A stretch of 64,000 nucleotides of DNA, taken from the IMG/VR virus record IMGVR_UViG_3300045988_103857; one strand, given 5' to 3'. The notes beneath the pieces are model-generated. The model was not told where the DNA came from. It saw only the letters and a program-made list of their open reading frames with translations, and made no database searches. This stretch comes from a virus. This document shows positions 5,741 through 30,167 of this stretch, in pieces. Position numbers and translations under genes: made by a program. Within the stretch, counting starts at the first letter, position 1. Each line of letters opens with the position of its first letter.

Positions 5741-5902
5741 ATGCCGAGAAAAAAAGCGGAAGTCAAAATTAAAATGATTTGTGAGAAATGCGGAAAACCA
5801 CAGAAACCAAGTGCTGACAAATCAACAACTAATTGGAATGTATATGACTGTCATGAAAAATGTGAATGTGGTGGAAAATTCGTAATGAAATTCGAGGATT
5901 GA
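5741..5902 (+). CDS. small zinc-ribbon protein
   Basis: GGAGG RBS and CxxC...CxC motifs (CEKCG, CHEKCECGG). Confidence 0.45.
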   Translation: MPRKKAEVKIKMICEKCGKPQKPSADKSTTNWNVYDCHEKCECGGKFVMKFED

Positions 5903-5904
5903 TT

Positions 5905-6255
5905 ATGGAAAATTTGACTGTAAATATTTTAGGAACCGAGTACAAAATATATTTCAGGAATGAAAAAGACGACGATTTACTTGATGGAAAAGGCAGAGAT
6001 GGATACACGGATATGTCCGCGCACGAAATTATAGTGTGTAACAAAAAAGATGATTGTGAATTAATAGATTACGAAAATTGGAAGAAAAACATTCTACGTC
6101 ATGAAATTGTTCATGCTTTTTTATTTGAAAGTGGACTTGATTCTTCGTCTGCCAATTTTTATGGAGCATGGGCTACGAACGAAGAAATGGTTGATTGGTT
6201 TGCAATTCAATCTCCAAAGATTTTTAAAGTATTCCAAGAACTTGATTTAATTTGA
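5905..6255 (+). CDS. HExxH zinc-metallopeptidase-like protein
   Basis: Contains the HEIVHAF motif. It is a distant paralogue of the next gene. Confidence 0.5.
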   Translation: MENLTVNILGTEYKIYFRNEKDDDLLDGKGRDGYTDMSAHEIIVCNKKDDCELIDYENWKKNILRHEIVHAFLFESGLDSSSANFYGAWATNEEMVDWFAIQSPKIFKVFQELDLI

Positions 6256-6273: not shown

Positions 6274-6660
6274 ATGATAAGACAATTTTACATGAACGGC
6301 GACCTATGGAGAGTGCAGTTCGTATCTCCGCACGACAGCGTGTTAATTGATCGTACAGGCAATAGAACGCTTGGGGTATCGGATTATTCCACCCATATTA
6401 TTTCAATCGCAAATAACCTGCACGGAGAGCTTCTGAATCGTGTGTTTATTCATGAGTTAGGGCATTGCGTAATGTTTAGCTACGGTCTATTACCAGAACT
6501 TCATCACATGGTCAAGAAACGGTATTGGGTGGATGCAGAAGAATGGTGCTGCAATCTTCTGGCCGACTATTCTTGTTTCGTGATTGGCACAGCTAGAGAT
6601 ATTTTAGGAAACCAGTTCACATATGTAGCTCCTATCGGGGCAGAAAGGATGATTGCATAG
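6274..6660 (+). CDS. HExxH zinc-metallopeptidase-like protein (ImmA/SprT-like)
   Basis: Contains the HELGHCV motif. Confidence 0.5.
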   Translation: MIRQFYMNGDLWRVQFVSPHDSVLIDRTGNRTLGVSDYSTHIISIANNLHGELLNRVFIHELGHCVMFSYGLLPELHHMVKKRYWVDAEEWCCNLLADYSCFVIGTARDILGNQFTYVAPIGAERMIA

Positions 6661-6903
6661 ATGGCAAAAGCAGAAAACACAGTTATTTTTGATGGAATCA
6701 AGTACAATCCCGGTGATGAATTGCCAGATTTAGGCAGTTGGGTGTGTACAGATGCAAAAGGCATGGTTCGTGATTACGAAGGGCTTTCAAAGGACGTATC
6801 GAAGCTTCCACATTATGTAGAGAGTGGTTCTTCGGCGTTGTGCCTTGATACTTCTGAATTATACGAATATCACAAACCTACCGATACATGGTACAAACTG
6901 TAA
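6661..6903 (+). CDS. hypothetical protein
   Basis: Abuts the preceding stop codon, 80 aa. Confidence 0.45.
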   Translation: MAKAENTVIFDGIKYNPGDELPDLGSWVCTDAKGMVRDYEGLSKDVSKLPHYVESGSSALCLDTSELYEYHKPTDTWYKL

Positions 6904-6916
6904 AGGAGAATCGCAT

Positions 6917-8821
6917 ATGGCATTAACAGCAAAGAAAGTATATGCAATATTAAAACGCCAGATTTCCGATATGGAAGCAAAAATAAAAACGCCTATTATT
7001 TACCGTGGTACAGTTGCAACCGCTGATTTGCTTCCATTAAATCCAGATATCGGAGATATGTACAATATCGAGTCTAAATCTGTCTATGGCGAAGCAGGAA
7101 TGAACGTGGCATGGAACGGTGTAGTATGGGATACTATGGGCGCCCCGATTGATATGTCGCTTTACATTAAATCAAGCGAATTGGCGGATTGGGTAAAACA
7201 GCAGAACAAGCCGACATATACGGCTGAAGAAGTTGGAGCGTTGCCGGCTGATACAAAGATTCCAAGCAAAACTAGTGACTTGCAGAATGACTCTGGATTC
7301 TTGACTAAAATTCCAGACAATTATCTTTCTGGAACAGACAAAACTCTGAGCGTATCTGGAAAAGCTGCTGACGCAAAGGCTGTTGGAGATAAAAACGTAG
7401 AATTATTAGCTGATATATCAAATAAGTTAAATAAGAACCAAGGCTCGGAGAACTCTGGCAAGATTGCCGGAATTAACGAATCTGGTGATATTGTTCCAAT
7501 GTTTCCAGTAAGCGTAGATTACAACGAAGAAACAAATTGTCTTGAGTTTGGCTCTGATCAGAAAATGGAACTGAACCAAGGTATCGGTCTTGATAGCACT
7601 CTCACAAAGACGGGATATGCCGCTGATGCGGGCGTAGTTGGAGAAATAACTAATTCACTAAAGGAAGATATAGGTGACTTAGAAAATTTAAAGTATAGAG
7701 AATTATATGATAATCTTTTTTATGATTTTTTTGATATTGCCACTAATAAAAGCGGTAATATTAATGAATATGGAAATGCTCAGCATATATTTGTAGAGAA
7801 TGTCTATTCAAATGGTGCCAAACTTGAAAGTGGAAATTATTTAGTTGCGCTCAAACTTACAAATATCAGTTTAAAAAGACAGGTTAATGTGGACGCAAGT
7901 TTTGCACTTTGTATTATAGACGGTTGGAATAAAAAATACTTGGGAGATATTCAATATTATAATGGTGAAAAAGAGTTATTTGTTTATTCCATTATAAATT
8001 TTACAAATGACAATAATATAAAAGTTTCTCCAGCTTTAATTTTAAATGGTGGCTTTGAGTCAAACTCCGAATATTCCTTTGATGTAGATACCATTGCTAT
8101 CATAAAAAATAACACAAATGGATTACCTGAATCAATCTTTCATTATGGAAATAACAAGATATATCCTGTTTTTAATATGTATGGCAATCTATCTAATTTT
8201 AAAAATGCCTATATTCTGAATAAAAAATTGGTTGCTAATGACACAAGTGGAACATCCGATGTTTCGGCTCAATATACTGTTGCGAAGATGGGAAATACTG
8301 TAAATAAAATTATGTTAAAAGGTATTTTTGATACAAATACCACAATAGCTATTATTACAGAGCCTAACGGAATGACAAATGTTACAGATGTTACAAATAG
8401 GTCTATTCATGTTACGTTTAGTGCAAATGGTTGCTCGGTTGGTTATTTTGATAATAAAGCATTAACGAACATAAAAAATATATCTTGGGATGGAGACTAT
8501 ATAGGCAAAGAAGTAACTATTGGCTTTGAAATAAGTGGAAATGTTATTACAGTTTATCTGCCAAACGGAAACACTTTAACGGTAACTAATGAAAAGTTAA
8601 TATCTTGTGGTGGAAAATATGCTTTGTGGGAGCATTATATGGGAGGGCTTAATAAAAGAATTTTCCATTCTGCACAATTTACAAAAATTTATGCAGAGGA
8701 TGCTGACGGAAATGTTCTTTGTGATGATTTTAACAGAGAAAATGGTAGCATTGGGATTTCTCCGCAAGGTTATGTTTATGCTCAATTTACAAATGAAAAT
8801 CAAACTGGATGGACATTTTAA
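6917..8821 (+). CDS. fibre / receptor-binding-like protein
   Basis: AGGAG RBS at the 6917 ATG. Contains fibre motifs GDMYNI and two copies of L[ST]x[ST]GxAADAxxVG (LSVSGKAADAKAVGD, LTKTGYAADAGVVGE). Confidence 0.6.
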   Translation: MALTAKKVYAILKRQISDMEAKIKTPIIYRGTVATADLLPLNPDIGDMYNIESKSVYGEAGMNVAWNGVVWDTMGAPIDMSLYIKSSELADWVKQQNKPTYTAEEVGALPADTKIPSKTSDLQNDSGFLTKIPDNYLSGTDKTLSVSGKAADAKAVGDKNVELLADISNKLNKNQGSENSGKIAGINESGDIVPMFPVSVDYNEETNCLEFGSDQKMELNQGIGLDSTLTKTGYAADAGVVGEITNSLKEDIGDLENLKYRELYDNLFYDFFDIATNKSGNINEYGNAQHIFVENVYSNGAKLESGNYLVALKLTNISLKRQVNVDASFALCIIDGWNKKYLGDIQYYNGEKELFVYSIINFTNDNNIKVSPALILNGGFESNSEYSFDVDTIAIIKNNTNGLPESIFHYGNNKIYPVFNMYGNLSNFKNAYILNKKLVANDTSGTSDVSAQYTVAKMGNTVNKIMLKGIFDTNTTIAIITEPNGMTNVTDVTNRSIHVTFSANGCSVGYFDNKALTNIKNISWDGDYIGKEVTIGFEISGNVITVYLPNGNTLTVTNEKLISCGGKYALWEHYMGGLNKRIFHSAQFTKIYAEDADGNVLCDDFNRENGSIGISPQGYVYAQFTNENQTGWTF

Positions 8822-8924
8822 TCAATTAACAAAAGAGGGCTTTAGTTAACCATTAAAACTGCAGGCACAACGCATTTAATTATTATAAACAGTTGACAAT
8901 AAATAACAGATATGGAGGAATCAC

Positions 8925-10688
8925 ATGAAAACGCAGAAAACAAAAGGATTTTATGACCGTGAAAATGATACGGTACATATTTTTATCCCACCTGCTCCGA
9001 CAGAATCGGAGAGAGGTGGAATTACTGCAAAAGAAAAAACAACGGAATCTCTTGAGGTTGCAGTTGACCCAGGAACAGGAAAAGCGTATGTGGCGCTGGA
9101 CGCTACTCTTTCCAAAACAGGAGAAGCGGCAGACTCAGCAGAAGTAGGGAAAAAGATTAGTGTCCTAAACGACATTATCTGCGGCACACCACATACAGAT
9201 ACCGTAGAAGAATATCTTAACCGCCAGAAAACAGGCGTGGTGTACCAGTCAAAAGAGTGGAAATCAGCGGTAAATCCGACAACTACGATTGAGAAGTTAG
9301 GCGTAAACAAGCTGATTCCATACGAACCGTCCACAGATACCGTAGAGGGTGCAGACGGATATGCGAACCGTCCAGAATTTCAGTGGTGGTACGGAAATTA
9401 TATCCGCCACGACAATGAAGACTATGAACTGACCGCAATCGAGGGCGAGGATGGATATTCAGAGGCTGACACCGTAGACGTGTGCTCTTTCGGGCCTATG
9501 TTCTATTACCGGAAAGAAAATAAAGGAGATTATTTCCTCTGGTCTTGGTCTGATACACCGCATGAGGAACTGGGATTAAAGCCATTTCAGAAGAATGCTG
9601 ATGGCTCCGTACCTGCTTATTGGCTTCTGTCTGCATTTCCATCTGTAGCCGGTTCTGACGGATTGCCACACTCGCAGCCCGGAAAGAAGATTTTAAGAAA
9701 CCAGAGTTACGGAAATATCCATCAGAATTACCAGAGGAAAGGAGCCGGATACTTAGGATGCGGCAAAGAACGTCAGACTTTCTGTATGATTTTCAATGCG
9801 ATCAAAGGCGGGCAGAAGAGTTCCAGAAAGATTTCACAGGGTGTAAACAACTGGAACTTCCAGCTCGATGCAGCAGAGCAGAGGTCGGAGAAGGCAACTT
9901 ACTTCCCGGTAACAGCAGCACAGGCAGCAAACCTGGAAGTTGGATTATGTGTTTCTGTTGGATATGGTTCTAACAACAATGGTGCAGTAAATAAAGACCG
10001 CGGAGTCGGAACTATGCATTCCTACGCGGACGACGTAAAGATTCTTCGTATTGAAGACCTTGCAAGCGGAAACAAAGCAGTGTATCTGGATATTTCAGAA
10101 GGATTTACTACAGTACCTGTAAAACTTACGGATACCTTAAATGCGCCGATCACAATGTCTTCTATGCACATTCACACTGGCGAGACGAAGAAAGTAATTG
10201 GAAAGCATGACGGTGCAGCTGTATCAAACACATCAGCAAGACATCCATACAGAATTCAGGGTGTCGAATATCAGGTAGGTGCTTATCATGTAGCTGCAAA
10301 TACAGTGATGGTATTCAAAAGTGATTACAGCAAAGATGTATATATCCGTGAAAAAGGAACTGCATGGAGTGATAACGAGAATATTGTCAAGAGTACATAT
10401 AAACTTGTTGGAAACATACCTGCCAGTGCAGATGGCAAAGGAAGTGACTGGTGGGTTGGTGATGTAGAAATTGATGAAGAAACAGGTGCATGGTGGCCAA
10501 TAGCCGCAACCGATTCTTCTGATCGAGGAATGGGAAGCAGAGTTTACGCCGGAGGAACAGCCACATCTGGAACCAGAGAATCACTTGAAGCCGGGCTCCT
10601 CTGGGATGGGGCGTTCTCCGGTTCCGCGTTCGTGGGTTGCTGGGGCGGGCTCTGGAATGACTGGTGGAGCTTCGGCTCCTGCGATTAA
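8925..10688 (+). CDS. DGR target protein: fibre-like protein with C-terminal variable region (putative C-type-lectin fold)
   Basis: Carries the same fibre motif LSKTGEAADSAEVGK near the N-terminus. The last 31 codons constitute the VR, matched by a downstream TR. Confidence 0.8.
   Translation: MKTQKTKGFYDRENDTVHIFIPPAPTESERGGITAKEKTTESLEVAVDPGTGKAYVALDATLSKTGEAADSAEVGKKISVLNDIICGTPHTDTVEEYLNRQKTGVVYQSKEWKSAVNPTTTIEKLGVNKLIPYEPSTDTVEGADGYANRPEFQWWYGNYIRHDNEDYELTAIEGEDGYSEADTVDVCSFGPMFYYRKENKGDYFLWSWSDTPHEELGLKPFQKNADGSVPAYWLLSAFPSVAGSDGLPHSQPGKKILRNQSYGNIHQNYQRKGAGYLGCGKERQTFCMIFNAIKGGQKSSRKISQGVNNWNFQLDAAEQRSEKATYFPVTAAQAANLEVGLCVSVGYGSNNNGAVNKDRGVGTMHSYADDVKILRIEDLASGNKAVYLDISEGFTTVPVKLTDTLNAPITMSSMHIHTGETKKVIGKHDGAAVSNTSARHPYRIQGVEYQVGAYHVAANTVMVFKSDYSKDVYIREKGTAWSDNENIVKSTYKLVGNIPASADGKGSDWWVGDVEIDEETGAWWPIAATDSSDRGMGSRVYAGGTATSGTRESLEAGLLWDGAFSGSAFVGCWGGLWNDWWSFGSCD
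10589..10681 (+). repeat. DGR variable repeat (VR)
   Basis: Ungapped 93-nt alignment to 10788..10880. There are 16 mismatches, all opposite TR adenines. Confidence 0.9.
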
Positions 10689-10787
10689 AAAGGCCCTTAG
10701 GGGTGAATTTTCCGAAGGAAAAGAGGGGGCTTCCCCTTAATTCCTTCCAAACACATACAAAAATAAAAGCATAAGGACTCATGGTGC

Positions 10788-10880
10788 AGCCGGGAACCTC
10801 AGGAATGGGACGAACTCCGGTTCCGCGTACGTGAATTGCAGGAACGGGCTCTGGAATGACAGGTGGAACTACGGCTCCTG
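10788..10880 (+). repeat. DGR template repeat (TR)
   Basis: Non-coding copy of the VR, rich in AAC/AAT/AGG codons when read in the VR frame. It lies between the target gene and the RT. Confidence 0.9.
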
Positions 10881-11081
10881 ATATTATTTATATCAAAACC
10901 AGTATTATTTGCATCATGTTTCACACCTGAAAAGGGTGTAGCCGAAAGGTTCTTTACGCATAAGCGTTAAAATAAGCAAGAAAGGCCAGCTGAAAGCCGG
11001 GGACGGCAAGTAAGGAATACAGTGTATGAGACTGTATTCGGGGCTAGTAGAAAAACCGGAAACCCTCTTTAAAATAATCGA

Positions 11082-12257
11082 ATGAAAAGATATTGCAAGG
11101 CCATTGATATAACAGACCGCGGATTAATCAGCACAGCGGTATATAAATGTCTGAAGAAAAAGTACAAAAGAAATGATGTACTGAGATTACTTAGTACATA
11201 TACGACTTTGGATGTTAATCAAATTTAATGCATTTTCAGAAGAAACGGAAAGAATGCCATTCGTTTTCTGGTGGAAGCAGTGATTGATGATATCCAGAAT
11301 GAAATCATTAACTGGGACATTAAATTCCCTCCGGTATGGTACCGGGAAAAAGTAGACCCATCGTCCGGGAAAATCCGTAGAATCGGAATCCAGAATATAA
11401 AGCATCAGTTGTATGATTACATAGCAGTTATAGCATTGCAGCCTATTCTGAAACGCATTGGAGAGCATCAGTACGCTTCCATCAAAGGGCGTGGGACTCT
11501 AAAAGGTGCAAGGGACGTAAGAAGATGGTTGAGAAACCATAAGCTCACATTCGTTGCTCAGGCAGACGTAAAGAAATGTTATGAGAGCATAGATAGGGAT
11601 AAGCTTATGCAATTCCTGGAATGCCACATCAAGAACGATCTGCTGATTAAATTGATCAGAAAATTGATTTACAGTTTTGAGAAAGGCCTGAGTATAGGCT
11701 CATATCTTAGCCAGTTTCTCTGCAATCTGTATATGAGCATCCTGTATCATCATGTTGCCGAAGGAATGTACCGTACCAGAAAGCACCGGAATGGATGCAG
11801 TGAGCGGATTAATCTTGTTAAGAAGCAAACGTTTTATATGGATGATACGCTGTTTGCCGGAACAAATAAGAAAGACATCAAGAAAGCAATGAAAATGTTC
11901 ATTAGAAAAGCAAAAGATATGGGGCTGACCATTAAGAACACCTTCCGTATCTACAAAATAACTGGAACATTCGTGGATATGATGGGATACCGGATATATC
12001 AGCATAAAATGACTGTTCGCAGAAGAAACTTCCGTAGAATCAGAAGGGCATATAAAAAGGCCCTAAAATGTTATGAGACACATAAACCAATTCCATTTAA
12101 ACTGGCAAAACGATGTAGTAGTTTCTATGGATTCCTGAAGAATACAAATAGTAAGCACATCCGGAAGAAATGGAAAGTAAAGAAGATTATGAAGATATGT
12201 AAAGGGGTGATAAAACGTGAAGAAAGTAAAATTTACACAGAAACAGCCATTGCTTAA
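11082..12257 (+). CDS. DGR reverse transcriptase; frame interrupted by in-frame TAA at 11226..11228 (uninterrupted ORF from GTG 11271)
   Basis: Contains YMDD (FYMDDTLF), SIGSYLSQ (the [LIV]GxxxSQ signature of DGR RTs) and RT motif 1/2 (GKIRRIGIQ). The N-terminal 48 codons from ATG 11082 are in the same frame. Confidence 0.85.
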
Positions 12258-12588
12258 GACGTTTGATTCCGGAGACGGAATTTATGTATTTATCTGTGCA
12301 AACGAAAAAGAAATCACAGAAGAAATACAGCAAGGAAATATATCAGAAGAATCACAGAGCCACACAGAAACAGTATACGAATATGACTGTAATGAATTTG
12401 TGACATCTGCAGATCGGCTTCCTGATATTGAGCAGAAGCCAAAAAAGTATCTTGACTATGTTCCAGAAACTAAAAAGAGCACAGAACAGCTTCTGGCAGA
12501 ACAGTCAGAACAGATCACAGCGCAGGCAAAACAGATTGAGATGCTAAAAGAGTGCCTGTTAGAAATGAGTGAACAGGTTTATGCGTAG
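12217..12588 (+). CDS. acidic hypothetical protein with C-terminal coiled coil (XkdW-like position after fibre genes)
   Basis: GTG start overlapping the RT 3' end. The C-terminal heptad region is EQLLAEQSEQITAQAKQIEMLKECLLEM. Confidence 0.4.
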   Translation: MKKVKFTQKQPLLKTFDSGDGIYVFICANEKEITEEIQQGNISEESQSHTETVYEYDCNEFVTSADRLPDIEQKPKKYLDYVPETKKSTEQLLAEQSEQITAQAKQIEMLKECLLEMSEQVYA

Positions 12589-12628
12589 GAATTTAATCAT
12601 TATGTTATTAAGCAAAGGAGATAAAGAA

Positions 12629-12775
12629 ATGATGGCAAAATTATGGGTTACAGAAATCTTAAGCAAAGAAACAATTGAAGAAGCAAAAGAAGAATACAAG
12701 AGAACACCGAGACTCCTGAAAGAAAAGGTAAAAAAGCTTCTCGTTGATGCAGGCATGGAGGAAATTACTGAATAA
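12629..12775 (+). CDS. small hypothetical protein (XkdX-like position)
   Basis: AAAGGAG RBS, 48 aa. Confidence 0.4.
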   Translation: MMAKLWVTEILSKETIEEAKEEYKRTPRLLKEKVKKLLVDAGMEEITE

Positions 12776-12931
12776 ATGACGAAGCTTCAGATCATTTCAA
12801 AACTCTGGCCTGTAATCTATGATATGCAATTAGCTACGAAGCCCTGGGAAGAGATAGACAAAGAGCTAGATATTCTGGAGTATAAATGCCGGAAATATGT
12901 GGATACAGACGATTTGGAGGAAATGCCATGA
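12776..12931 (+). CDS. small hypothetical protein
   Basis: 51-aa ORF below the track cutoff, with an ATGA overlap with the next gene. Confidence 0.3.
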   Translation: MTKLQIISKLWPVIYDMQLATKPWEEIDKELDILEYKCRKYVDTDDLEEMP

Positions 12932-13326
12932 GAGGATTAAAACGGCAAAAACAAACAATATACTGGTCCAGAGCAACAGAAGACCTTGACGGGATAGACA
13001 CAATCAAAACGTACCAAAAGCCAGAATTATATCACTTCTCCGTATCTGCGACCGCCGGAACGCCAGAGGAATTATCCGCCGGTTATATCCCGGACTACGA
13101 CAGGTATATCACAAACTTCGACCGCAGCTTCAAGCCACAGACCGCCGATGTATTCTGGATTGATCGCAAGCCGGAACTGACCGGTGCAGGCGAACTTGTT
13201 TTAGGTGAAGACGGAGAGCCTACAGTACCGCCAGATTACCGTCTGAAAAAGATTCTCGATACCCAGAAAGGCAATGTGGCACGATATGGCATCAAGTATA
13301 TAGGAGATGGTTCAGATGGCGAATAA
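12928..13326 (+). CDS. putative head-closure / head-tail joining protein
   Basis: GGAGG RBS at the internal ATG. Its position precedes the HK97 gp10-like gene; similarity was judged by eye only. Confidence 0.4.
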   Translation: MRGLKRQKQTIYWSRATEDLDGIDTIKTYQKPELYHFSVSATAGTPEELSAGYIPDYDRYITNFDRSFKPQTADVFWIDRKPELTGAGELVLGEDGEPTVPPDYRLKKILDTQKGNVARYGIKYIGDGSDGE

Positions 13327-13834
13327 GACTATCAAAATGGAATTGTCGCATAAATCTATACAGGACACAATAAAGCAGCTCAGAGCGTATCAGAAGTCAC
13401 TTGCAAGCAAGAATGAAGAGTTTGTCCGCAGGCTGGTAGAACTTGGAATCCCGGTCATAGATGAAAACATAGCATTGGCACAAGGCGATTCTGACAAAAA
13501 CCATAACACCTATATCAGAATCAATAACTTTGGCGATTATTCTCAGGCGACGCTTGTGTGTGAAGGCTCTGACCTCTTGTTCATTGAGTTCGGGTCTGGC
13601 ATTTACTACAACACTCCTGCAGGAACCAGCCCACATCCTAAGGGGCAAGATTTCGGTTACACAATCGGTTCATACGGACAGGGGAACGGAAAGAATGAAT
13701 CGTGGGTTTATTTTGCCGATTCTGGCGAATGGGTACGCTCTTACGGTACCGAAGCCACCATGCCGGTATATAAGGCAAGCGTAGAAATCATGCAGAGCAT
13801 CAGAAAAATTGCAAAAGAAGTGTTTGCATCATGA
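13316..13834 (+). CDS. HK97 gp10-family neck/tail-joining protein
   Basis: Size, position and the FIEFGSG motif are typical of the HK97 gp10 family. Confidence 0.6.
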   Translation: MANKTIKMELSHKSIQDTIKQLRAYQKSLASKNEEFVRRLVELGIPVIDENIALAQGDSDKNHNTYIRINNFGDYSQATLVCEGSDLLFIEFGSGIYYNTPAGTSPHPKGQDFGYTIGSYGQGNGKNESWVYFADSGEWVRSYGTEATMPVYKASVEIMQSIRKIAKEVFAS

Positions 13835-13895
13835 AAGTTAATACCTGATAATACTGAATAATACCTCTGTCTTTGATATACTATAACATATAAAA

Positions 13896-13924
13896 GCATC
13901 TACCTGAGCGGTGGGTGCTTTTTT
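13896..13924 (+). terminator. rho-independent terminator
   Basis: 9-bp stem GCATCTACC/GGTGGGTGC (two G-U pairs) followed by TTTTTT. Confidence 0.5.
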
Positions 13925-13958
13925 CATGCAAAAAAACATAGAAAAGGAGAATGTAAGC

Positions 13959-14597
13959 ATGTTAGTAGAAACAATGATTATCAAAAAAGTAGAAACGAGC
14001 ATTGTCACAAGCCTAGATGTCGCAGAAACTTTTGAAAAAGAACATAAAAGAGTATTGCAGGACATTAGAAATTTAGGATGCAGTGAAGAATTCGGACAGC
14101 ACAATTTCGTGCTTTCCTCATACACAAGCATCCAGAATAAAAAACAACCTATGTACTGCATGACGAGAGATGGATTTACGCTTCTTGTTATGGGATACAC
14201 TGGCGAAAAAGCCATGAAGTTCAAAGAAGGATACATTCGCCAATTCAATGCAATGGAAAAAGTTCTTTTAGGAAAAATCAGAGAACGAGACAAAGGCATT
14301 GCAGTAAGACAAGCGTTGACCAATGCACTTAAAGAATCTCAAGAAAACGAGAGAATGCACGGTCATGCATATTCGACATACACAGATATGGTATATCGTA
14401 CATTGTTTGGCAAAACTGCAAAACAACTTAGAGAAGAAAAAGAAATTTCTACTAAAGACAATCTAAGAGATTTCCTTACCGAAGAAGAGCTAAAAGCTGT
14501 CCAGTCAAAGGAAATGCTTGTTAGTGGTTTGATTGACTGCGGATGGGGATATTCTCAAATAAGAGATTTCCTTAATACCAGTCTCAGAATATGTTAG
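13959..14597 (+). CDS. Rha-family phage regulatory protein
   Basis: The segment VTSLDVAETFEKEHKRVLQDIRNL...MTRDGFTLLVMGYTGEKAMKFKEGYIRQFNAME matches the Phage_pRha pattern. AAGGAG RBS. Confidence 0.75.
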   Translation: MLVETMIIKKVETSIVTSLDVAETFEKEHKRVLQDIRNLGCSEEFGQHNFVLSSYTSIQNKKQPMYCMTRDGFTLLVMGYTGEKAMKFKEGYIRQFNAMEKVLLGKIRERDKGIAVRQALTNALKESQENERMHGHAYSTYTDMVYRTLFGKTAKQLREEKEISTKDNLRDFLTEEELKAVQSKEMLVSGLIDCGWGYSQIRDFLNTSLRIC

Positions 14598-14617
14598 AAC
14601 AGGCGGTGTGATATAAA

Positions 14618-15025
14618 ATGCCAGACACGATTAACAACCCAGTATCAGAAGTATTTTCTAGGTGGAGCAAAGATATTCAACCAACAGTCGGCAAAGGCAA
14701 TTTTTCCATGGAAAAAAGCCAGACAATAGCATCTGGTAAAACAAAATACGCCAGATTGTTCATGATGGGGAATCCCACGCAGTCAACAAGTCTTGAAGGT
14801 CACGAATGCGCAACAGTTCTTTCATTTCAAACGGAAAGTTACGCATCTGGGACAAAGGCTTTATCGACTGCATACGAAATCGACAGCAAAAGTCATCAGG
14901 CTATGGTTTCGATGGGCTTTCGCCGGACATACGGGCCGGAAGAAGTCGCAAACTCCGAAAAGAGTTTCAAACGAATCATAAGCCGGTACAGCAGAATTTA
15001 CACCGGGCAATTATTGGAAGTGTAA
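14618..15025 (+). CDS. putative tail-terminator / tail-completion protein
   Basis: Called from its position between the neck genes and the major tail gene. No family was recognised with certainty. Confidence 0.35.
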   Translation: MPDTINNPVSEVFSRWSKDIQPTVGKGNFSMEKSQTIASGKTKYARLFMMGNPTQSTSLEGHECATVLSFQTESYASGTKALSTAYEIDSKSHQAMVSMGFRRTYGPEEVANSEKSFKRIISRYSRIYTGQLLEV

Positions 15026-15066
15026 CAGCTTCTATTTTTTATACCAAAAAGAAAGGAGAGTGTCCT

Positions 15067-15279
15067 ATGAGTAAAGATAAATTACAATGGCTGAAAGCTG
15101 CGGGAATCAGAGCTGTTAAGACAATTGCTCAGACAGCAGTTGCGACAATCGGAACCGCAACAGTCCTTGGAAGCGTTGACTGGAAGATGGTCGTATCCGC
15201 GTCCGTTCTTTCCGGCGTTTTATCCTTGCTTACATCTGTAGCAGGGCTTCCAGAACTGAAAACAGGCACAGATGAATAG
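15067..15279 (+). CDS. holin-like protein (r1t-holin-like, two TM segments)
   Basis: AAGGAG RBS. The sequence AVKTIAQTAVATIGTATVLGSVDW...VLSGVLSLLTSVAGLPE matches the pattern of r1t-type holins. Confidence 0.5.
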   Translation: MSKDKLQWLKAAGIRAVKTIAQTAVATIGTATVLGSVDWKMVVSASVLSGVLSLLTSVAGLPELKTGTDE

Positions 15280-15324
15280 AAAGGACGGTGATCCTTTTAT
15301 CTCCCGGATGCAGGGTTACGCATC

Positions 15325-15346
15325 AGAGCCATGTGGCTCTTTTTTA
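15325..15346 (+). terminator. rho-independent terminator
   Basis: AGAGCC-ATGT-GGCTCT followed by TTTTTT. Confidence 0.55.
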
Positions 15347-15384
15347 TTGTGATTTTATAGCTGAAAAGCAGAAAGGAGCCGAAT

Positions 15385-15879
15385 ATGGCAGAAAAAGGAA
15401 ATATAGCAGGCGTAAGTACCGTTGGTTCGCTTACTGGATATGCAGTCGAAACAACAGCAGGTACTAAACCGACAACATTTAAACTTCTTCACAGAATCAA
15501 TGCTTCTGATGAAATCAAAATTGACGTGGAGACAATCGACGCTTCCGCACTTGAAGATGAAGTCGAAAGAACTATTGCAGGACGTGGTTCTACAGGTGGT
15601 ACATTCAACGTAACTGTGAATGTAACTGATGAAACTATCACTGAATGGGAAACCTTAATCAGCGAATATAAAACAGGAAAAACAGATGGAAAATCTATGT
15701 GGTATGAAGAATATTTCCCGTCTCTTAAGAAAGCATTCTTCACAAAAATCGAGCCACCGACAATCATTCCTAAACCGGCGAGAGATCAGAATGGCCTGTT
15801 AACCGTTGAAATGTCTCTTACTATCAATGAATATGTCGGCCCGAGTGAAGCAGTAGTTCCAACTGACAGCGGCCTTTAA
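15385..15879 (+). CDS. major tail protein
   Basis: 164 aa, positioned directly upstream of the chaperone pair and tape measure. Sequence style resembles siphovirus major tail proteins. Confidence 0.65.
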   Translation: MAEKGNIAGVSTVGSLTGYAVETTAGTKPTTFKLLHRINASDEIKIDVETIDASALEDEVERTIAGRGSTGGTFNVTVNVTDETITEWETLISEYKTGKTDGKSMWYEEYFPSLKKAFFTKIEPPTIIPKPARDQNGLLTVEMSLTINEYVGPSEAVVPTDSGL

Positions 15880-15902
15880 ACACATTTGGGAGGACAAATA
15901 AT

Positions 15903-16388
15903 ATGTATAAAGTTTTAAAAATCGGCGGCAAAGACTACAAACTTGAATATGGAATTGAAGCATCACTGTTTGATGATTGTGTGAAATCCGTAATGAATAT
16001 GCTGGTTTCCACAAGCGGTGGAACGGACAGGAGTCTTAAGGAAATGGTTTCTGGAATGAGTAGTATTCCAAATACTGCACTCAATGCGTTCTATGCCGGA
16101 TTACTTCAATATCACGGCAACCATTCTGACGGTGATGGCACTGTCCCGGACTTAGATACCGCCAAAAAACTTGCAACACAGTATATGACCGAACATAAAG
16201 ATGATGAGCAGGGTAACTTCTATGGCCTTTTCGCCATGTGCATTGAACAGATGGAGGAAGATGGTTTTTTCAAGTTAACCGGTCTGGAAACCTTCATGGA
16301 CAACATGAATGCGGCAATGGACTCTGTGAAAGCGAAGAAAGCGCCGAAGAAGCCAACAGATCACCTGAAAAAAGCTACAGTGAAATAA
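15903..16388 (+). CDS. tail assembly chaperone (gpG-like)
   Basis: Sits between the major tail gene and the tape measure, with an acidic C-terminus and a slippery site near its 3' end. Confidence 0.65.
   Translation: MYKVLKIGGKDYKLEYGIEASLFDDCVKSVMNMLVSTSGGTDRSLKEMVSGMSSIPNTALNAFYAGLLQYHGNHSDGDGTVPDLDTAKKLATQYMTEHKDDEQGNFYGLFAMCIEQMEEDGFFKLTGLETFMDNMNAAMDSVKAKKAPKKPTDHLKKATVK
16367..16373 (+). promoter_or_regulatory. -1 programmed frameshift slippery site G_AAA_AAA
   Basis: Zero frame reads CTG AAA AAA GCT. The -1 frame is open from at least 16322 and continues into ORF 16409..16789. Confidence 0.6.
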
Positions 16389-16789
16389 TCTGGGATGAAT
16401 TATATCCAATGGCTGTGCGCATTGGGATGTCAAAAAAAGAATTTCTTAGGAGCACTCTTAAGGACCTGAGAATCCGTATAGAACAATATGGAATCTTAAA
16501 GAACGAAGAAATTCAGTCGCAGTTGATAAACATGGACTATCAGTCGTGGCTGACCGGATTGTACGTGAAAACAAGTGTTTTGTGTACATTGTTCCCGAGA
16601 AAGGTTAGCTATCCGAGCAAACCAATTACGCAGGAAAAACAGAATAATTGGGTTGAACACAATCCAGATATGCCAAAGAAATCAGAAGCAGAACTAAGAC
16701 AAGAAGAACGTTACTACGAACTTCTTATCAGGCAGGCAAATGCAAATATATCTGAAATAGGTAATGAAAAGGGCAAGCAGGATGAATAG
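16370..16789 (+). CDS. gpT-like -1 frame extension of the tail assembly chaperone (G-T fusion product)
   Basis: The ORF is in the -1 frame relative to 15903..16388 and overlaps its 3' end, matching the conserved G/GT arrangement. Confidence 0.6.
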   Translation, partial: KSYSEIIWDELYPMAVRIGMSKKEFLRSTLKDLRIRIEQYGILKNEEIQSQLINMDYQSWLTGLYVKTSVLCTLFPRKVSYPSKPITQEKQNNWVEHNPDMPKKSEAELRQEERYYELLIRQANANISEIGNEKGKQDE

Positions 16790-16836
16790 TAGTCTTGCTT
16801 GCCCTTTATTTTTTTTGAAATAAAGGAGGTGCTTAT

Positions 16837-19800
16837 ATGCCTGACAACACAATAGATAGCCTTGCGATAGAGGTCAGCAGTAACGTATCAAATGCAAGTA
16901 AATCCATTGATGATTTATGCAATAAACTGAATCGCCTGAGCAGTCGTATGTCTGAGAGCATCAAGTATCTCAGAGACTTTTCAGCTTCCGTCGGTACGGT
17001 CAACTCTGCTGTTCAAGCACTTAAATTGGACAGGCTTGATTTATCAACGATAAACAGTCAATTGCAACAGTTTACGCAGTCCATGAGTGCGCTCGGTAGC
17101 CTGAACTTGAGAAACAACGGATTAAACTCATTCGTAAATGCAATCCGCAGATTGAACGAAACATTAAATTCCACAGGTGATGTGTCTGGAAAGATTCAGA
17201 GCATGATTTCTGAGCTATCCACGCTTGGCAGTATTCCAGACGTATCAAACAACGTGAACCGGTTTATTTCTTCGTTGGCAAGATTGGCGAATGCAGGCAG
17301 CTCTATTGATGCAGTTACATCAAAACTTCCAAATCTTGGTGAAGAACTTAGAAAAATCATAGTTTCATTCTCTGGAATAGGTAATATTTCTCAGCCAATT
17401 AATACATTTGTTCAGTCAATATCTCAGTTGGCAAATGCAGGAGATAAAACCGGAAAGACAGCAACTCAGCTTAATGATCTGGCAAATAGCCTAAAATCAT
17501 TCTTCCAGACGATGAGTACCGCTCCTAGAATCAGTAGCAGTACAATTCAAATGACTCAGGCTGTTGCTCAGTTGGCAAATTCTGGGGCGAATGCCGGTAG
17601 AGCGGCAAGGTCTACTGCAAGTGCATTTTCAGGATTGGGACAGGGTGCGGCCACTTCGACAGGAAAGGTCAGAAAACTTGCAAACGCCGTTGGAAGTGTA
17701 GGAAGCAAGGCAAAGAAAAGTTTGCCTAGCATCATGTCTCTGGTGGCAAAATTCTGGACGTTGAAATTTGTTGTTGGAAAATTTGGAAGCGCAATTGAAA
17801 GTTCCATGAATTTTCTCGAAGATTACAACTACTTTCAAGCGGCGTTTCGTCAGGTAGCAGATAAAGCAGGAGAAACTTGGTCAGAGGCAGGCTATGATTC
17901 TGCGGAAGCTTATGCAAATTCATTTAGTAATAGAGCTAGAGAACTTACATCCAAAATGTCTGGGTTCAATGTTTCCGATAATGCGATTTTGACCGCAAAT
18001 AAATCAGGTAAATCACTCGGTATGGACCCGTCCATGCTCTTGAATTATCAAGGCCAGTTTGCACAGTTGTCGTCCTCCATGGGAACAACTTCTGAACAGG
18101 CATTAAAACTGTCGAATGCACTGACTATGATCGGTGCTGACCTTGCATCTGTTAAGAATCTTGATTTTAGCACAGTTTATGAGAACTTATCCTCTGGATT
18201 AGTAGGTATGAGCCGTGCTGTAGACAAATATGGTGCAAACATTCGTGTGGCAAACTTACAGCAATATGCGGCAAATCTTGGTATACAAACGTCTGTTTCT
18301 AATATGGACCAGGCAAGTAAGGCAATGCTGAGAACGATAGTAATACTGGATTCCACCCGGTACGCATGGGCGGATATGGCAAATACGATAAATATGCCAG
18401 CCAACCAGTTACGTATACTTCGTGCAAACTTAGTATCCTGTGCCAGAGCATTAGGTAACATCTTTATGCCTGTAGTTGCGGCAGTGCTTCCATACATCAA
18501 TGGTCTTGTGATCGCATTCCAGAGACTTTTGACATACATTGGTTCGCTTCTTGGAGTTGATACCAAAATCGGAAAAATGTTCGGTTCTATCGGTGGTGGA
18601 AGTGAAAATCTCTCGAATGCACTTGATTCCATAGACGATTCTGGAATTTCGGACGTAAATGATGCTACAAAAGATACAGACAATAATCTGAAAAATGCAA
18701 CCAAGAGCGCAAAAAAATTAAAACAGTTCCTCGCATCCTATGATGAACTTGAAATTATGAGCAAAGACGATAGTTCTCTGTCAGACCTTGCAAATTCTAA
18801 AATTAAAACGCCAAAAATTGACACATCTGCAATTGATGCAGGAATCCTCAACGATGCACTGGATAAACTTTTGAACGAATACCAGAAGAAATGGGATGCT
18901 GCCTACAACTCCATGGAAAACAAGGCTATGGCGTTCGCTAATAAGGTCACAGACACATTTAAGAAACTTGCAAAAGCCGCAGAACCTACCACAAAAGCAC
19001 TGAAAAATCTTTGGAACAATGGATTGAAGCAGCTCAGAGATTTCACATGGACAGCATTAAAAGATTTCTGGAATCATTTTTTAGTTCCGCTTGGCAAGTG
19101 GACGCTTGGGGAAAAAGGATTACCACGACTAATCAATGCTTTTAACGATTTTCTTGTGAAAATCAACTGGGACAAAATCAATGCTTCCCTTGTACAGTTA
19201 TGGGGTGTATTAGAGCCATTTGCTGAGAATGTCGGAACTGGCTTACTTGATTTCTTCGATGATTTCTTTGACAAGGCGGCAGATGGAGTTAATAAACTTC
19301 CTGATCTGATTGACAGGTTCAAAGAGTTTATCGCAGCATTCTCACCGAAGCAAGCACAGTCTATCGGATATTTCCTCGGACAGCTCCTGACAGCTTTTGT
19401 AGCATTTAAAGGGCTTACATGGTTTGGAAGTATTTTCGGTAAAGATGGAGCGATAGGCAAAGGAATCACCATGTTAGCAACGCATCCATATGCTTCGATA
19501 GCGGTAGGATTAGGCCTTACCGTTGCTGCACTTGATAAATTTGGAGTAATTGATGTTGATTGGGACGGGTTATGGACAAGAATCGGGAATCTCAAAGACG
19601 TAATTGTGAATTTCATCAAAAACATTGATTGGGATTCGTTAATAAAAACAATCGGCGATGTATGGGATGTATTCCAGCCATTTGCTGAAGGATTCGCAGA
19701 TGGATTTATCAGCTTTTTCGATATAATGCTGAACGATATTGGTGCCCCACTGATTAATACATTAGTAAGCGTCTTAGATGCTTTCGCAAAAGCCTTAGGA

Positions 19801-22247: not shown

Positions 22248-22310
22248 CAACCAGAGTGCATGGGTGTCACAGCTCATGTGCTCTTTTATTTTATAGACGG
22301 GAGGAAAACT

Positions 22311-29217: not shown

Positions 29218-29916
29218 TCAACTTATGTAATTTTCATATTTTTCTTTGATTTCTTTTGACCCATTCTGTCTTATCTGGACAATGTCCCCAGAATCCATGA
29301 CGAAATTATCACCTGCCGACTGAATATGATCCATGTTCACCAGATAACTCTGATGGCAACGTAAGAATCGCTTATCAGACAGCTTTTCTTCCAGATCGTT
29401 CAGCTTGCAAGTGGTCACGAAACATCGGTTATTTGTAGCGAAAATATGGCAAACTCTTGCCTGACTTTCGACGTACTCAATTTCATCGTATTTGAGCCGG
29501 TTTATCTGCCTACGGAATTTGAACGTCAATGTTTCATCCCTCATCTGTGACAGAATCTCGTCAATAGCCCGGTATATTCTGCCGTATTCCTTGCCCTTGA
29601 CCGCATACTGCATAGCGCCGACGTCAAACGCTTCTTGCAGATGAGAATCGTCGGCTGTCCAGAATATAATCTTTCCATCATATCCAATATCCCGGAGCCG
29701 GTTCGCAATCTCCAAACCGTTCTCATTTTCCAGAATCATATCCAGTACAATTACATCGTACCATTTACCCTCTTTCACATCTTCAACAAGCGGATAACCT
29801 GCCGAATACTCGCTAATTTCATACCGGTAATCTCCTTTGCGCCGCAAGAATCCCGATATGTGCTCTTTAAACAAGTCAACTTCAAGCTGATTATCGTCAC
29901 ATATGGCTATTCTCAT
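29218..29916 (-). CDS. LytTR-family response regulator (orphan; no adjacent histidine kinase)
   Basis: Receiver domain MRIAICDDNQ...VIVLDMIL with a C-terminal LytTR pattern (YVESQARVCHIFATNN...FLRCHQSYLVNMDHI). AGGAGG RBS before the ATG at 29916. Confidence 0.8.
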   Translation of the reverse strand: MRIAICDDNQLEVDLFKEHISGFLRRKGDYRYEISEYSAGYPLVEDVKEGKWYDVIVLDMILENENGLEIANRLRDIGYDGKIIFWTADDSHLQEAFDVGAMQYAVKGKEYGRIYRAIDEILSQMRDETLTFKFRRQINRLKYDEIEYVESQARVCHIFATNNRCFVTTCKLNDLEEKLSDKRFLRCHQSYLVNMDHIQSAGDNFVMDSGDIVQIRQNGSKEIKEKYENYIS

Positions 29917-30167
29917 ATGCGCGCCCTCCTTTCGTAGTCTCAATTTTGCCAAAATACGCAATGATTTTGACAGCACACACATTTTTCTTCCTGTTCGTGG
30001 TATTATTGTCCCACAAACAAAGTGTAGCACTTAAAATTGTTAGTGTAAAGCGCTAAAGTTTGACATAATTCGCAAAATATGGTTTCTGTGTCCGGGAGGA
30101 TGTGTGGATAGAGAGACTGCCTGCGAGAACGACAGGCAAAAGAAAGAGGGGCGGTTGCCCCTCTTGT

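What the first reader, a model, noticed from the sequence alone, without database searches (positions are those of the whole stretch)
8925..12257. Complete diversity-generating retroelement targeting the C-terminus of a fibre-like protein
VR (10589..10681) and TR (10788..10880) align without gaps over 93 nt. I count 16 mismatches. Every one lies at an adenine of the TR copy: 16 of 22 TR adenines are substituted, and there is no mismatch at any C, G or T.

In the target reading frame the variable adenines occupy first or second positions of 12 codons:
- TR AAC x4 becomes VR CTC, TTC, GGC and AGC.
- TR AAT x2 becomes GAT and GGT.
- TR AGG x3 becomes TGG in all three cases.
- TR ACG becomes GCG.
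- TR TAC x2 becomes TTC in both cases.

This is the classic AAY-rich design of DGR templates. The TR copy is non-coding, since the aligned frame ends in TGA. The next ORF has RT motifs, including FYMDDTLF and the SIGSYLSQ ([LIV]GxxxSQ) signature of DGR RTs. The target shares the fibre motif LSKTGEAADSAEVGK with the preceding fibre gene.
Basis: seen in the sequence. Interest (0 to 1): 0.75.

Follow-up and report, generated by a model that had tools for sequence, protein, structure and literature searches.

The report
Gut-phage DGR with broken reverse transcriptase
This is a genuine diversity-generating retroelement that rewrites the tip of a tail-fibre-like protein in a temperate phage of the gut bacterium Blautia. 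It is an ordinary member of a well-known kind, except that this strain's reverse transcriptase gene has a premature stop and the element has no Avd helper protein but a large conserved folded RNA.

Summary
**Observation: confirmed.** VR 10589-10681 and TR 10788-10880 align without gaps over 93 nt. All 16 mismatches lie at TR adenines (16 of 22; p = 2e-13).

**Population evidence.** In 13 related phage contigs the TR is nearly invariant. Each VR differs, almost only at TR-adenine columns.

**RT class.** The RT has IGSYLSQ and YMDD. Its best solved relative by family profile is the Bordetella phage DGR RT (4e-19).

**What "complete" gets wrong:**
- The RT frame starts at ATG 11082 and has an in-frame TAA at codon 49 (11226-11228).
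- All 14 close relatives have Tyr there.
- The TAA allele recurs in at least 35 independent contigs, so it is real. This strain's DGR is probably disabled.
- No Avd or HRDC gene lies within about 5 kb. This is the known accessory-less "architecture A" layout.
- The C-type-lectin fold is only weakly supported.

**New detail.** The 201-nt TR-RT spacer is a conserved RNA with eight covariation-supported helices. A further duplex brackets the TR, like the BPP-1 "stop duplex". It occurs upstream of this RT lineage in 43 distinct sequences and has no Rfam family.

**Verdict:** new member of a known kind; moderate interest.

The parts
8925..10688 (+). Target gene (587 aa), a tail-fibre-like variable protein. 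The VR encodes its last ~33 residues.
   Evidence: ORF. Matches phrog_17147 at 1.9e-52. More than 1800 homologues, none with a Pfam domain; its 90% cluster has 575 members. BFVD fold matches include 'tail collar fiber' proteins and proteins of crAss-like phages. Best PDB fold match is TaqVP, a DGR variable protein.
10589..10681 (+). Variable repeat (VR)
   Evidence: 93-nt ungapped match to the TR with 16 mismatches, all at TR adenines. It differs at A columns in every related contig.
10673..10681 (+). A-free, G+C-rich 3' end of the VR (CGGCTCCTG), identical in TR and VR. An IMH-like anchor (inferred).
   Evidence: Invariant in the window VR and the 12 other VRs compared. Homology ends immediately after it. 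Its function is inferred by analogy with BPP-1.
10700..10710 (+). Conserved post-VR motif GGGGTGAATTT
   Evidence: Present downstream of the VR in the window clade, the second clade (L021, L025) and L004; L003 keeps GGGGTG only. Function unknown; possibly target-site recognition.
10714..10747 (+). Imperfect hairpin downstream of the target gene. Outer stem GAAGGAA/TTCCTTC, inner stem GAGGGG/CCCCTT, loop GCTT. It could be a terminator or a DGR target-site hairpin.
   Evidence: DNA fold (not better than shuffles, z = -0.88). The terminator scan hits 10724-10737 on the minus strand. The inner stem is conserved while the loop varies among relatives.
10782..10789 (+). 5' strand of the TR-bracketing duplex (TGGTGCAG). 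It pairs with 10909-10916 in the spacer.
   Evidence: Complementarity of 8-11 bp lies at a near-constant offset in 20 lineages with different sequences. Matched lineages average 7.7 bp against 5.6 bp for mismatched ones; 0 of 5000 permutations reach the observed mean.
10788..10880 (+). Template repeat (TR), non-coding
   Evidence: Nearly invariant across the 14 related contigs. 22 adenines; 14 variable codons; adenine substitution can never create a stop codon.
10881..11081 (+). Structured spacer (Sp-like) RNA between the TR and the RT.
- Stop-duplex 3' strand: 10909-10916
- P0: 10883-10889 / 11072-11078
- P1a: 10917-10921 / 10970-10974
- P1: 10923-10928 / 10934-10939
- P2: 10940-10943 / 10948-10951
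- P3: 10956-10959 / 10964-10967
- P4: 10996-10999 / 11004-11007
- P5: 11016-11023 / 11031-11038
- Conserved GGGGCTAGTAG: 11040-11050
- P6: 11041-11043 / 11063-11065
   Evidence: Covariance model R1 finds it directly upstream of the RT in 43 distinct sequences. 94.3% of pair cells are paired against 67.2% in shuffles; 39 of 42 pairs change on both sides; covariation score 0.547 against at most 0.089 for slid controls. RNAalifold, run on the same model-fitted alignment, recovers seven of the eight helices, all but P1a. No Rfam match.
11082..12257 (+). Reverse transcriptase reading frame (391 codons), interrupted in this genome
   Evidence: Pfam RVT_1 at 8.4e-19. phrog_1423 aligns residues 1-384 across the stop. 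Contains IGSYLSQ and YMDD. The family profile hits BPP-1 bRT (8ub7) at 4.4e-19, and hhalign gives 98.9%.
11226..11228 (+). In-frame TAA (codon 49) that truncates the RT
   Evidence: The codon is TAC or TAT (Tyr) in all 14 close relatives, Tyr, Lys or His in more distant ones. The same allele occurs in independent assemblies: L051, L052, L132-L134. The truncated product is on 32 + 3 contigs.
6824..8821 (+). Preceding fibre-like gene (context). It carries two copies of the D-x-T-L-x-x-x-G-x-AAD-x-x-x-V-G motif that is also present in the target.

Best explanation
**What it is.** Window 8925-12257 is a diversity-generating retroelement of a temperate siphovirus-like phage or prophage of Blautia (Lachnospiraceae). 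Its layout is target(VR)-TR-spacer RNA-RT, with no Avd or HRDC accessory gene.

**How it most likely works.**
1. An RNA is transcribed that runs from about 10 nt upstream of the TR through the TR and the 201-nt spacer.
2. The spacer folds into an eight-helix structure. A further duplex (10782-10789 with 10909-10916) brackets the TR.
3. The RT binds this RNA and copies the TR into cDNA, misincorporating opposite adenines.
4. Synthesis ends at the bracketing duplex, which coincides with the 5' limit of VR/TR homology.
5. The cDNA replaces the VR, anchored by the A-free G+C-rich 3' end CGGCTCCTG.
6. This recodes up to 14 codons at the C-terminal tip of a tail-fibre-like receptor-binding protein. 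About 1.2e12 protein variants are possible and none contains a stop codon.

**State in this strain.** The RT gene carries a nonsense codon at position 49. The cassette is therefore most likely inactive and the VR frozen in its last diversified state. Sister lineages with an intact RT keep diversifying.

**Shown versus inferred.**
- Shown: the A-specific TR/VR relationship, the population pattern, the RT class, the nonsense allele, and RNA conservation with covariation.
- Inferred by analogy with BPP-1: priming, the stop function of the duplex, the homing anchor, loss of activity, and receptor binding.
For: **TR/VR pair and population pattern**
- 93 nt, 16 of 16 mismatches at TR adenines, p = 2e-13.
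- Across 13 related IMG/VR contigs the TR is nearly invariant. Each VR carries 9-19 substitutions at A columns and 0-2 elsewhere.
- In the protein cluster, the last 33 residues hold 8-15 of 22-47 differences.
- Adenines sit at codon positions 1 and 2, and no stop codon is reachable.

**RT class**
- RVT_1 and phrog_1423; IGSYLSQ and YMDD.
- Its best solved relative is BPP-1 bRT. The profile E-value is 4.4e-19, against 2.5e-11 or worse for every other RT in the PDB. The identity of 8ub7 was verified.
- It scores far below threshold for group II maturase, Drt3a and the defence RTs.

**RNA**
- CM hits sit directly upstream of the RT in 43 distinct sequences.
- All eight helices show covariation.
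- The bracketing duplex covaries at a fixed offset.
- Handa et al. (bioRxiv 10.1101/2023.10.23.563531) describe the analogous elements in BPP-1.

**Nonsense allele:**

**Host and context**
- Cluster members lie in Blautia massiliensis and B. wexlerae genomes.
- The window carries capsid, tape-measure, holin, CHAP lysin, integrase and RecT genes.
Against: - Activity in this strain cannot be read from one assembly. The VR is fully diversified, so homing happened before, or despite, the nonsense mutation.
- One contig with the same truncated RT (L133) carries a repeat with different A-site substitutions. That could mean diversification after the mutation, trans-complementation, recombination or misassembly.
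- Identical VRs on many contigs are also seen for lineages with an intact RT. The 'frozen VR' is therefore not demonstrated.
- No promoter-like site was found between the VR and the TR.
- The C-type-lectin fold of the target is only weakly supported.
- The pair counts were made on an alignment fitted to the model, which favours the model's structure.
Confidence: 0.8

Rival explanations
1. The DGR is still active in this strain. The RT could be supplied by reinitiation at GTG 11271/11280 (an N-terminally truncated enzyme), by stop-codon readthrough, or in trans by another DGR RT in the host or a co-resident prophage.
For: - The VR is diversified at 16 of 22 sites.
- The TAA allele is widespread, in 57 index blocks, so it is not strongly counter-selected.
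- L133 has the same truncated RT but different A-site substitutions in its single repeat.
- The part of the RT that aligns with bRT begins at residue 70, after the possible restart.
Against: - The first 48 residues are conserved across the family: nine invariant positions among sequences as low as 34% identical.
- In BPP-1 the N-terminal extension contacts the RNA (Handa et al., section 8).
- Among the contigs read that carry the truncated RT, L132, L134 and those grouped with L132 (same neighbouring proteins, 21 not shown) have the identical 587-aa target despite occasional SNPs elsewhere.
- No stop-codon reassignment is seen. Large ORFs across the window read normally with code 11.
- L133 is a low-coverage contig with a disrupted target gene.
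Confidence: 0.17
2. The TAA is a sequencing or assembly error and the RT is really intact.
For: It is a single-base difference (TAC to TAA) from the closest relatives.
Against: - The same truncated product is recorded on 32 contigs, plus 3 contigs with the 328-aa call, from ENA, Logan, NCBI and JGI assemblies.
- L051, L052, L132 and L134, from different samples, are 99.98-100% identical to the window across the site.
Confidence: 0.02
3. The repeat pair is not a retroelement product. It is an ordinary duplication that diverged by some A-biased mutation process, and the RT belongs to another system such as a group II intron, a retron or a defence RT.
For: The RT gives weak hits to group II maturase and DRT models.
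Against: - p = 2e-13 for A-only mismatches.
- Directionality: the TR is invariant and the VR varies across lineages.
- The hits to other RT classes are far below threshold: TIGR04416 scores 65 bits against a cutoff of 300, and Drt3a 31 bits against 200.
- The best profile match in the PDB is the BPP-1 DGR RT.
- There is no intron RNA or any other Rfam family in the window.
Confidence: 0.01

Closest known systems
Bordetella phage BPP-1 DGR (mtd-VR, avd, TR, Sp RNA, brt)
   Same: - Adenine-specific TR-to-VR information flow.
- VR at the C-terminal tip of a tail-fibre receptor-binding protein.
- RT with the IGSxxSQ and YMDD motifs; it is the best PDB profile match.
- TR followed by a structured spacer RNA.
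- A duplex that pairs sequence upstream of the TR with the spacer (Handa et al., bioRxiv 10.1101/2023.10.23.563531).
   Different: - No Avd gene.
- RT of 391 rather than 328 residues, with a longer conserved N-terminal extension.
- Spacer of 201 nt (144 nt between TR and brt in the BPP-1 record), with eight helices and an outer closing helix (P0) running from just after the TR to just before the RT start codon.
- The VR and TR are only 106 nt apart.
- The RT is interrupted in this strain.
- Only 22% identity over the aligned RT core.
Accessory-less DGRs ('Architecture A', target-TR-RT; Wu et al. 2018, PMC5758913)
   Same: The gene order is target(VR)-TR-RT with no Avd, HRDC, MSL or CH1. That survey counted 75 DGRs as accessory-less (Architecture A) and proposed an Avd-independent mechanism.
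   Different: - Whether this RT belongs to that survey's avd-less 'Lineage 3' was not tested.
- The conserved spacer RNA described here is not part of that classification.
- A related locus (L001) has an RNase H ORF between the VR and the TR.
TaqVP, Thermus aquaticus DGR variable protein (PDB 5VF4; C-type-lectin fold)
   Same: It is the best PDB fold match of the full-length target model (probability 0.98, E 1.8e-3). In both proteins the variable residues lie at the C-terminal end.
   Different: - Low TM-score (0.28/0.41) and 10-12% identity.
- No sequence-profile match to any PDB chain.
- The isolated C-terminal 146 residues give no match.
- The target has an extra N-terminal fibre-like segment.
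DGRs of gut phages that target tail fibres (Hankyphage, crAss-like phages, Faecalibacterium prophages)
   Same: - Same ecological setting and same kind of target.
- BFVD fold matches include proteins of crAss-like phages cr7_1 and cr130_1. Those two genomes also encode RT relatives.
- DGRs are reported in 19% of inducible gut prophage species (PMC12629997).
   Different: - Different host phylum (Bacillota, Blautia).
- RT only 25-29% identical to those phage RTs.
- No DNA match in the INPHARED phage collection.

Membership tests
Diversity-generating retroelement | A TR/VR repeat pair whose mismatches are (almost) all at TR adenines | tested here: met
   16 of 16 mismatches lie at TR adenines over 93 nt, p = 2e-13.
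Diversity-generating retroelement | An adjacent RT of the DGR class, with [LIV]GxxxSQ in motif 4 and YxDD | tested here: met
   IGSYLSQ and YMDD are present. The family profile's best PDB hit is BPP-1 bRT at 4.4e-19, and hhalign gives 98.9%. No phylogeny with curated DGR RTs was run.
Diversity-generating retroelement | An intact RT open reading frame, needed for a functional element | tested here: not met
   TAA at codon 49 (11226-11228) in the window and in identical contigs. The frame is intact in 14 close relatives.
Diversity-generating retroelement | Directional variation: the TR is conserved while the VR varies between related genomes at A positions | tested here: met
Diversity-generating retroelement | The VR lies at the 3' end of a protein-coding gene, TR adenines sit at codon positions 1 and 2, and no stop codon can arise | tested here: met
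Diversity-generating retroelement | An accessory protein (Avd or HRDC). Typical, but not universal. | tested here: not met
   No Pfam, NCBIfam or PHROG match to Avd or HRDC in ORFs from 4.6 to 16.4 kb. The whole-window Pfam list was only partly visible.
Diversity-generating retroelement | DGR RNA elements: a structured spacer 3' of the TR and a duplex pairing sequences upstream and downstream of the TR | tested here: met
Diversity-generating retroelement | A functional IMH and target-site hairpin, and actual mutagenic homing | not testable with these tools
   Only sequence candidates are available: the G+C-rich 3' end at 10673-10681, the motif at 10700-10710, and the hairpin at 10714-10747.
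C-type-lectin-fold DGR variable proteins (Mtd, TvpA, TaqVP) | A CLec fold that displays the VR residues | tested here: inconclusive
   Full-length model: mean pLDDT 71.7, with TaqVP as the top PDB hit but at TM 0.28/0.41. VR residues have pLDDT below 50. The C-terminal model finds nothing. No Pfam domain and no PDB profile hit.
Group II intron RT/maturase | Score above the TIGR04416 cutoff, plus an intron RNA | tested here: not met
   65.4 bits against a cutoff of 300. No group II intron RNA in Rfam scans.
Defence RTs and retrons (DRT, UG, Drt3a) | A full-length match to a defence RT model | tested here: not met
   Drt3a scores 30.6 bits against a cutoff of 200. The PADLOC hits are weak (at most 67 bits) and mostly cover only part of the RT core.
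Any Rfam RNA family (for the spacer RNA) | A match at or near the gathering score | tested here: not met
   No hit at gathering thresholds in the window. Only chance-level hits (E of 1.2 or more) in 10500-11300.

The most novel reading that the evidence does not exclude
The 201-nt TR-RT spacer is an undescribed RNA family with eight covarying helices, an invariant GGGGYUAGUAG...CCGAAA.CCC core and a TR-bracketing duplex. It may define an Avd-independent branch of DGRs in prophages of gut Bacillota and Actinomycetota. In that reading the enlarged RNA, together with the RT's extended N-terminus, takes over the scaffolding role that the Avd pentamer plays in BPP-1. The window's widespread RT-nonsense allele would then be a natural knockout for measuring what a phage loses when its DGR is switched off.
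Probability: 0.3. Interest if true: 0.65.

Novelty: new member of a known kind. Interest (0 to 1): 0.42.

Why it matters
As a DGR this adds little. Tail-fibre-targeting DGRs are common in gut phages, and near-identical contigs are already in public catalogues.

Two points have some value.

1. **A natural null allele.** A nonsense allele of the RT circulates in many samples, next to sister lineages with an intact RT. That gives a ready-made comparison for asking whether VR diversification stops when the RT is lost, and what that costs the phage.

2. **An RNA for the accessory-less DGRs.** Published surveys left the Avd-less DGRs mechanistically unexplained. Here they carry a large spacer RNA with strong covariation support and a TR-bracketing duplex that marks the 5' end of the transferred segment. 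This gives concrete, testable RNA elements for Avd-independent mutagenic retrohoming. It also gives a covariance model that could help to find and delimit such DGRs.

Tried and rejected
**Searches that found nothing**
- Near-identical DNA in the INPHARED phage collection: no match.
- tRNA or tmRNA in the window: none.
- Rfam at gathering thresholds and at permissive E-values: nothing real.
- A second, remote VR in the window: none.
- Avd or HRDC among neighbouring ORFs, using Pfam, NCBIfam and PHROGs: none. The whole-window Pfam scan showed only the top 25 of 59 families, so absence elsewhere in the window is not proven.
- A sigma-70-like promoter for the TR RNA between the VR and the TR: none.
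- A sequence profile of the target against the PDB: no hit.

**Structure prediction of the C-terminal 146 residues**
- Low confidence in the VR part, and no fold match. The 'CLec in the last 120 residues' idea could not be confirmed this way.

**Ideas tested and dropped**
- The window's G-to-A change at 10923, in the otherwise conserved TTTCGC, as a second disabling mutation. Rejected: it converts a G-U pair to A-U, and L053 has the same base.
- 'Frozen VR' shown by many contigs sharing the exact target protein. Rejected as evidence, because RT-intact variants are also seen on up to 65 contigs.
- Pairing of the spacer's CAGCUG with UAGUAG, and similarity between the post-VR motif and spacer motifs. 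Considered by eye; not supported well enough to report as structure.
- RNAalifold on a plain MAFFT alignment recovered only three short helices, because hairpins were misaligned between clades. This was replaced by a CM-based alignment.


Full report
**1. The observation**

They differ at 16 positions. All 16 are adenines in the downstream copy, which holds 22 adenines in all. An independent repeat search finds the same pair. The hypergeometric probability that 16 random mismatches all fall on the 22 A positions is 2e-13.

In the reading frame of ORF 8925-10688 the substitutions lie at codon positions 1 (nine) and 2 (seven), never at position 3. The downstream copy read in the same frame runs into TGA.

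Substituting every TR adenine by any base can change 14 codons. That gives about 1.2e12 protein variants and never produces a stop codon. No other VR-like copy exists in the window.

**2. Evidence from related genomes**

A search of IMG/VR with the RT found 14 contigs with 84-100% RT identity and about 30 more at 53-57%.

- In the 14 close relatives the TR is nearly invariant.
- Each of the 12 that contain the VR has a different one. They carry 9-19 differences from their own TR at adenine columns and only 0-2 elsewhere.
- The target protein belongs to a 90%-identity cluster of 575 distinct sequences. The last 33 residues, 5.6% of the length, carry 8-15 of the 22-47 differences between members.

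Cluster members occur in Blautia massiliensis and B. wexlerae genomes, one on a 2.0-Mb contig. The window holds capsid, tape-measure, holin, CHAP lysin, integrase, RecT and replisome-organiser genes. The element therefore sits in a temperate phage of Blautia.

**3. The reverse transcriptase, and why 'complete' is wrong**

Codon 49 is TAA (11226-11228); the longest ORF after it starts at GTG 11271.

- PHROG family 1423 aligns residues 1-384 straight across the stop.
- More distant homologues are uninterrupted and have Tyr, Lys or His at that position.
- All 14 close relatives have TAC or TAT.

The stop is not an assembly error.

- Contigs from other samples are 99.98-100% identical to the window over 6-8 kb, and gene callers report a 325-aa RT there.
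- That truncated product is recorded on 32 contigs, and a 328-aa call on 3 more, from four data sources.

The missing 48-66 residues include nine positions that are invariant across the family. In the BPP-1 enzyme the N-terminal extension contacts the RNA. I therefore consider the RT of this strain probably non-functional, but that is an inference.

The RT is of the DGR class.

- It has IGSYLSQ and FYMDD.
- A profile of the family hits PDB 8ub7 at 4.4e-19, against 2.5e-11 or worse for every other RT.
- 8ub7 is identical to BPP-1 Brt.
- hhalign gives 98.9% probability over 263 columns, with IGSLTSQ aligned to IGSYLSQ.
- It fails the curated thresholds for group II maturase and Drt3a. It gives only weak, generic matches to defence RTs.

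**4. Accessory genes**

No ORF between 4.6 and 16.4 kb matches Avd, HRDC or any nucleic-acid-binding accessory family. Only 106 nt separate the VR from the TR.

This is the accessory-less 'Architecture A' layout, which Wu et al. counted in 75 DGRs. They suggested that it implies Avd-independent homing (PMC5758913).

**5. The spacer RNA**

The 201 nt between the TR and the RT start are conserved far beyond the close relatives. I modelled eight helices by hand from cross-clade comparison. I then built a covariance model from the window clade and searched 97 loci.

- The model hits 43 distinct sequences. All but one marginal hit (E = 0.77, inside L089) lie directly upstream of the RT on its strand. 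E-values reach 1e-31 outside the seed clade.
- The hits include Lachnospiraceae, other Clostridia and Bacilli MAGs.
- On the resulting alignment 94.3% of pair cells are standard pairs, against 67.2% in shuffles.
- 39 of 42 pairs show changes on both sides.
- The covariation score is 0.547, against at most 0.089 when partners are slid by 1-3 columns.
- RNAalifold on the same alignment recovers seven of the eight helices, all but P1a. 33 of its 35 pairs show compensatory change.

Caveat: this alignment was fitted to the model.

A separate, alignment-free test concerns the TR-bracketing duplex.

- The 8-11 nt just upstream of the TR pair with the spacer segment just upstream of the conserved TTTCGC.
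- In the window this is 10781-10789 ATGGTGCAG pairing with 10909-10917.
- The same pairing lies at a near-constant offset in lineages with quite different sequences, for example ACGGCGCA/TGCGTCGT, ACAGTGCAG/TTGCACTGT, GACGTGC/GCACGTC and ATAGAGCAG/TTGCTCTAT.
- Matched lineages pair better than mismatched ones: mean 7.7 against 5.6 bp, with 0 of 5000 permutations as high.

The duplex edge coincides with the 5' limit of VR/TR homology. This parallels the 'cPRT Stop' duplex and the spacer stem-loops of BPP-1. Handa et al. surveyed those elements only in DGRs that have Avd.

No Rfam family matches the spacer. The one paper the literature search returned for these terms concerns a defence RT, not a DGR RNA.

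**6. The target protein**

- It has no Pfam domain.
- The AlphaFold model is of moderate quality: mean pLDDT 71.7, below 50 in the VR.
- Its best PDB match is TaqVP, a DGR variable protein with a C-type-lectin fold, but only weakly: E 1.8e-3, TM 0.28/0.41.
- In BFVD it matches phage proteins annotated as tail collar fibre, and crAss-like phage proteins, at E down to 1e-19.
- A model of the last 146 residues alone matches nothing.
- A profile search of the PDB finds nothing.
- The N-terminal motif is similar to two motifs in the preceding 665-aa ORF at 47-52% identity over 27-30 residues.

A tail-fibre or receptor-binding role is therefore plausible. The CLec fold is not established.

**7. Downstream of the VR**

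- The A-free end CGGCTCCTG is identical in the TR and in all the VRs compared.
- A motif GGGGTGAATTT (10700-10710) recurs after the VR in the second clade and L004, and in part in L003.
- An imperfect hairpin follows at 10714-10747.

These are candidates for the homing anchor and the target-site structure. Their function is not tested.

**8. Verdict**

The interpretation needs three corrections.

1. The RT is interrupted in this strain.
2. There is no accessory gene.
3. The CLec fold is unproven.

The kind is well known and common in gut phages (PMC12629997). I therefore rate it a new member of a known kind. Two details raise its interest to moderate: the circulating RT-null allele, and the covariation-supported spacer RNA of an Avd-less lineage.

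Noticed in passing
L001:3150-3659 (MT835469, related DGR, RT 53% identical): A 169-aa RNase H ORF (PF00075, 46 bits; also RVT_3) lies between the VR and the TR of a related DGR, in the position where BPP-1 has avd. It may be an unreported DGR accessory gene.
   Followed up: partly
TR copies in L008 (4707-4799), L010 (4706-4798), L016 (81-173): These TRs carry A-to-G or A-to-T changes at TR adenine columns. In L008 and L010 the same bases are present in their own VR (L016 lacks the VR). Possible causes are occasional homing of mutagenised cDNA into the TR, VR-to-TR conversion, or erosion of template adenines.
   Followed up: no
L133 (ENA ERZ1307784 NODE_116), about 2440-2610: This contig has the same truncated RT but only one repeat. 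That repeat is VR-like at its 5' half, with A-site substitutions different from the window's, and joins directly to the TR's 3' flank. The 45 nt before it diverge and the target ORF ends early. It could be a deletion by VR/TR recombination, a decayed element, or a misassembly.
   Followed up: partly
window 10923: The window has A where nearly all relatives have G in the conserved TTTCGC at the base of helix P1. The change turns a G-U pair into A-U. L053 has the same base, so it is probably harmless.
   Followed up: yes
window 11044 with 11062 (next to helix P6), and the same alignment columns in other loci: The pair next to the three G-C pairs of P6 varies as U-G, G-U, U-A and C-A between lineages. 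This would fit a conserved wobble geometry (C-A+), or a contact that is not a simple Watson-Crick pair.
   Followed up: no
window 29218-30030 (-), next to 27648-29075 (+): A phage-borne response regulator with receiver and LytTR DNA-binding domains lies directly after the CHAP-domain lysin gene. The adjacent 266-aa ORF (30168-30968, minus strand) has no Pfam match.
   Followed up: no
window 5866-6255 and 6274-6660 (+): Two tandem small proteins (129 and 128 aa), each with an HExxH motif, lie just upstream of the fibre genes. Both match phrog_1233, and the second gives a weak 'peptidase' PHROG hit.
   Followed up: no
window 6824-16800: Unusual module order. The fibre-like gene, the DGR target and the RT lie upstream of a Rha regulator (13911-14597) and a holin (14806-15279). 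All of these precede the 1658-aa tape-measure gene (16837-21813) and the 1228-aa tail protein gene (22260-25946).
   Followed up: no
P0127 (member of the target's protein cluster): A 649-aa cluster member ends with the TR-encoded peptide (...YVNCRNGLWNDRWNYGS). This suggests an assembly, or a genome, in which the VR carries unmutated TR sequence or in which VR and TR were merged.
   Followed up: no
whole window (coordinates not resolved): Pfam matches among the window's ORFs include two NUMOD4/HNH_3 and two GIY-YIG homing-endonuclease-like genes, and an IS4/5-type transposase (DDE_Tnp_1, DUF4096).
   Followed up: no
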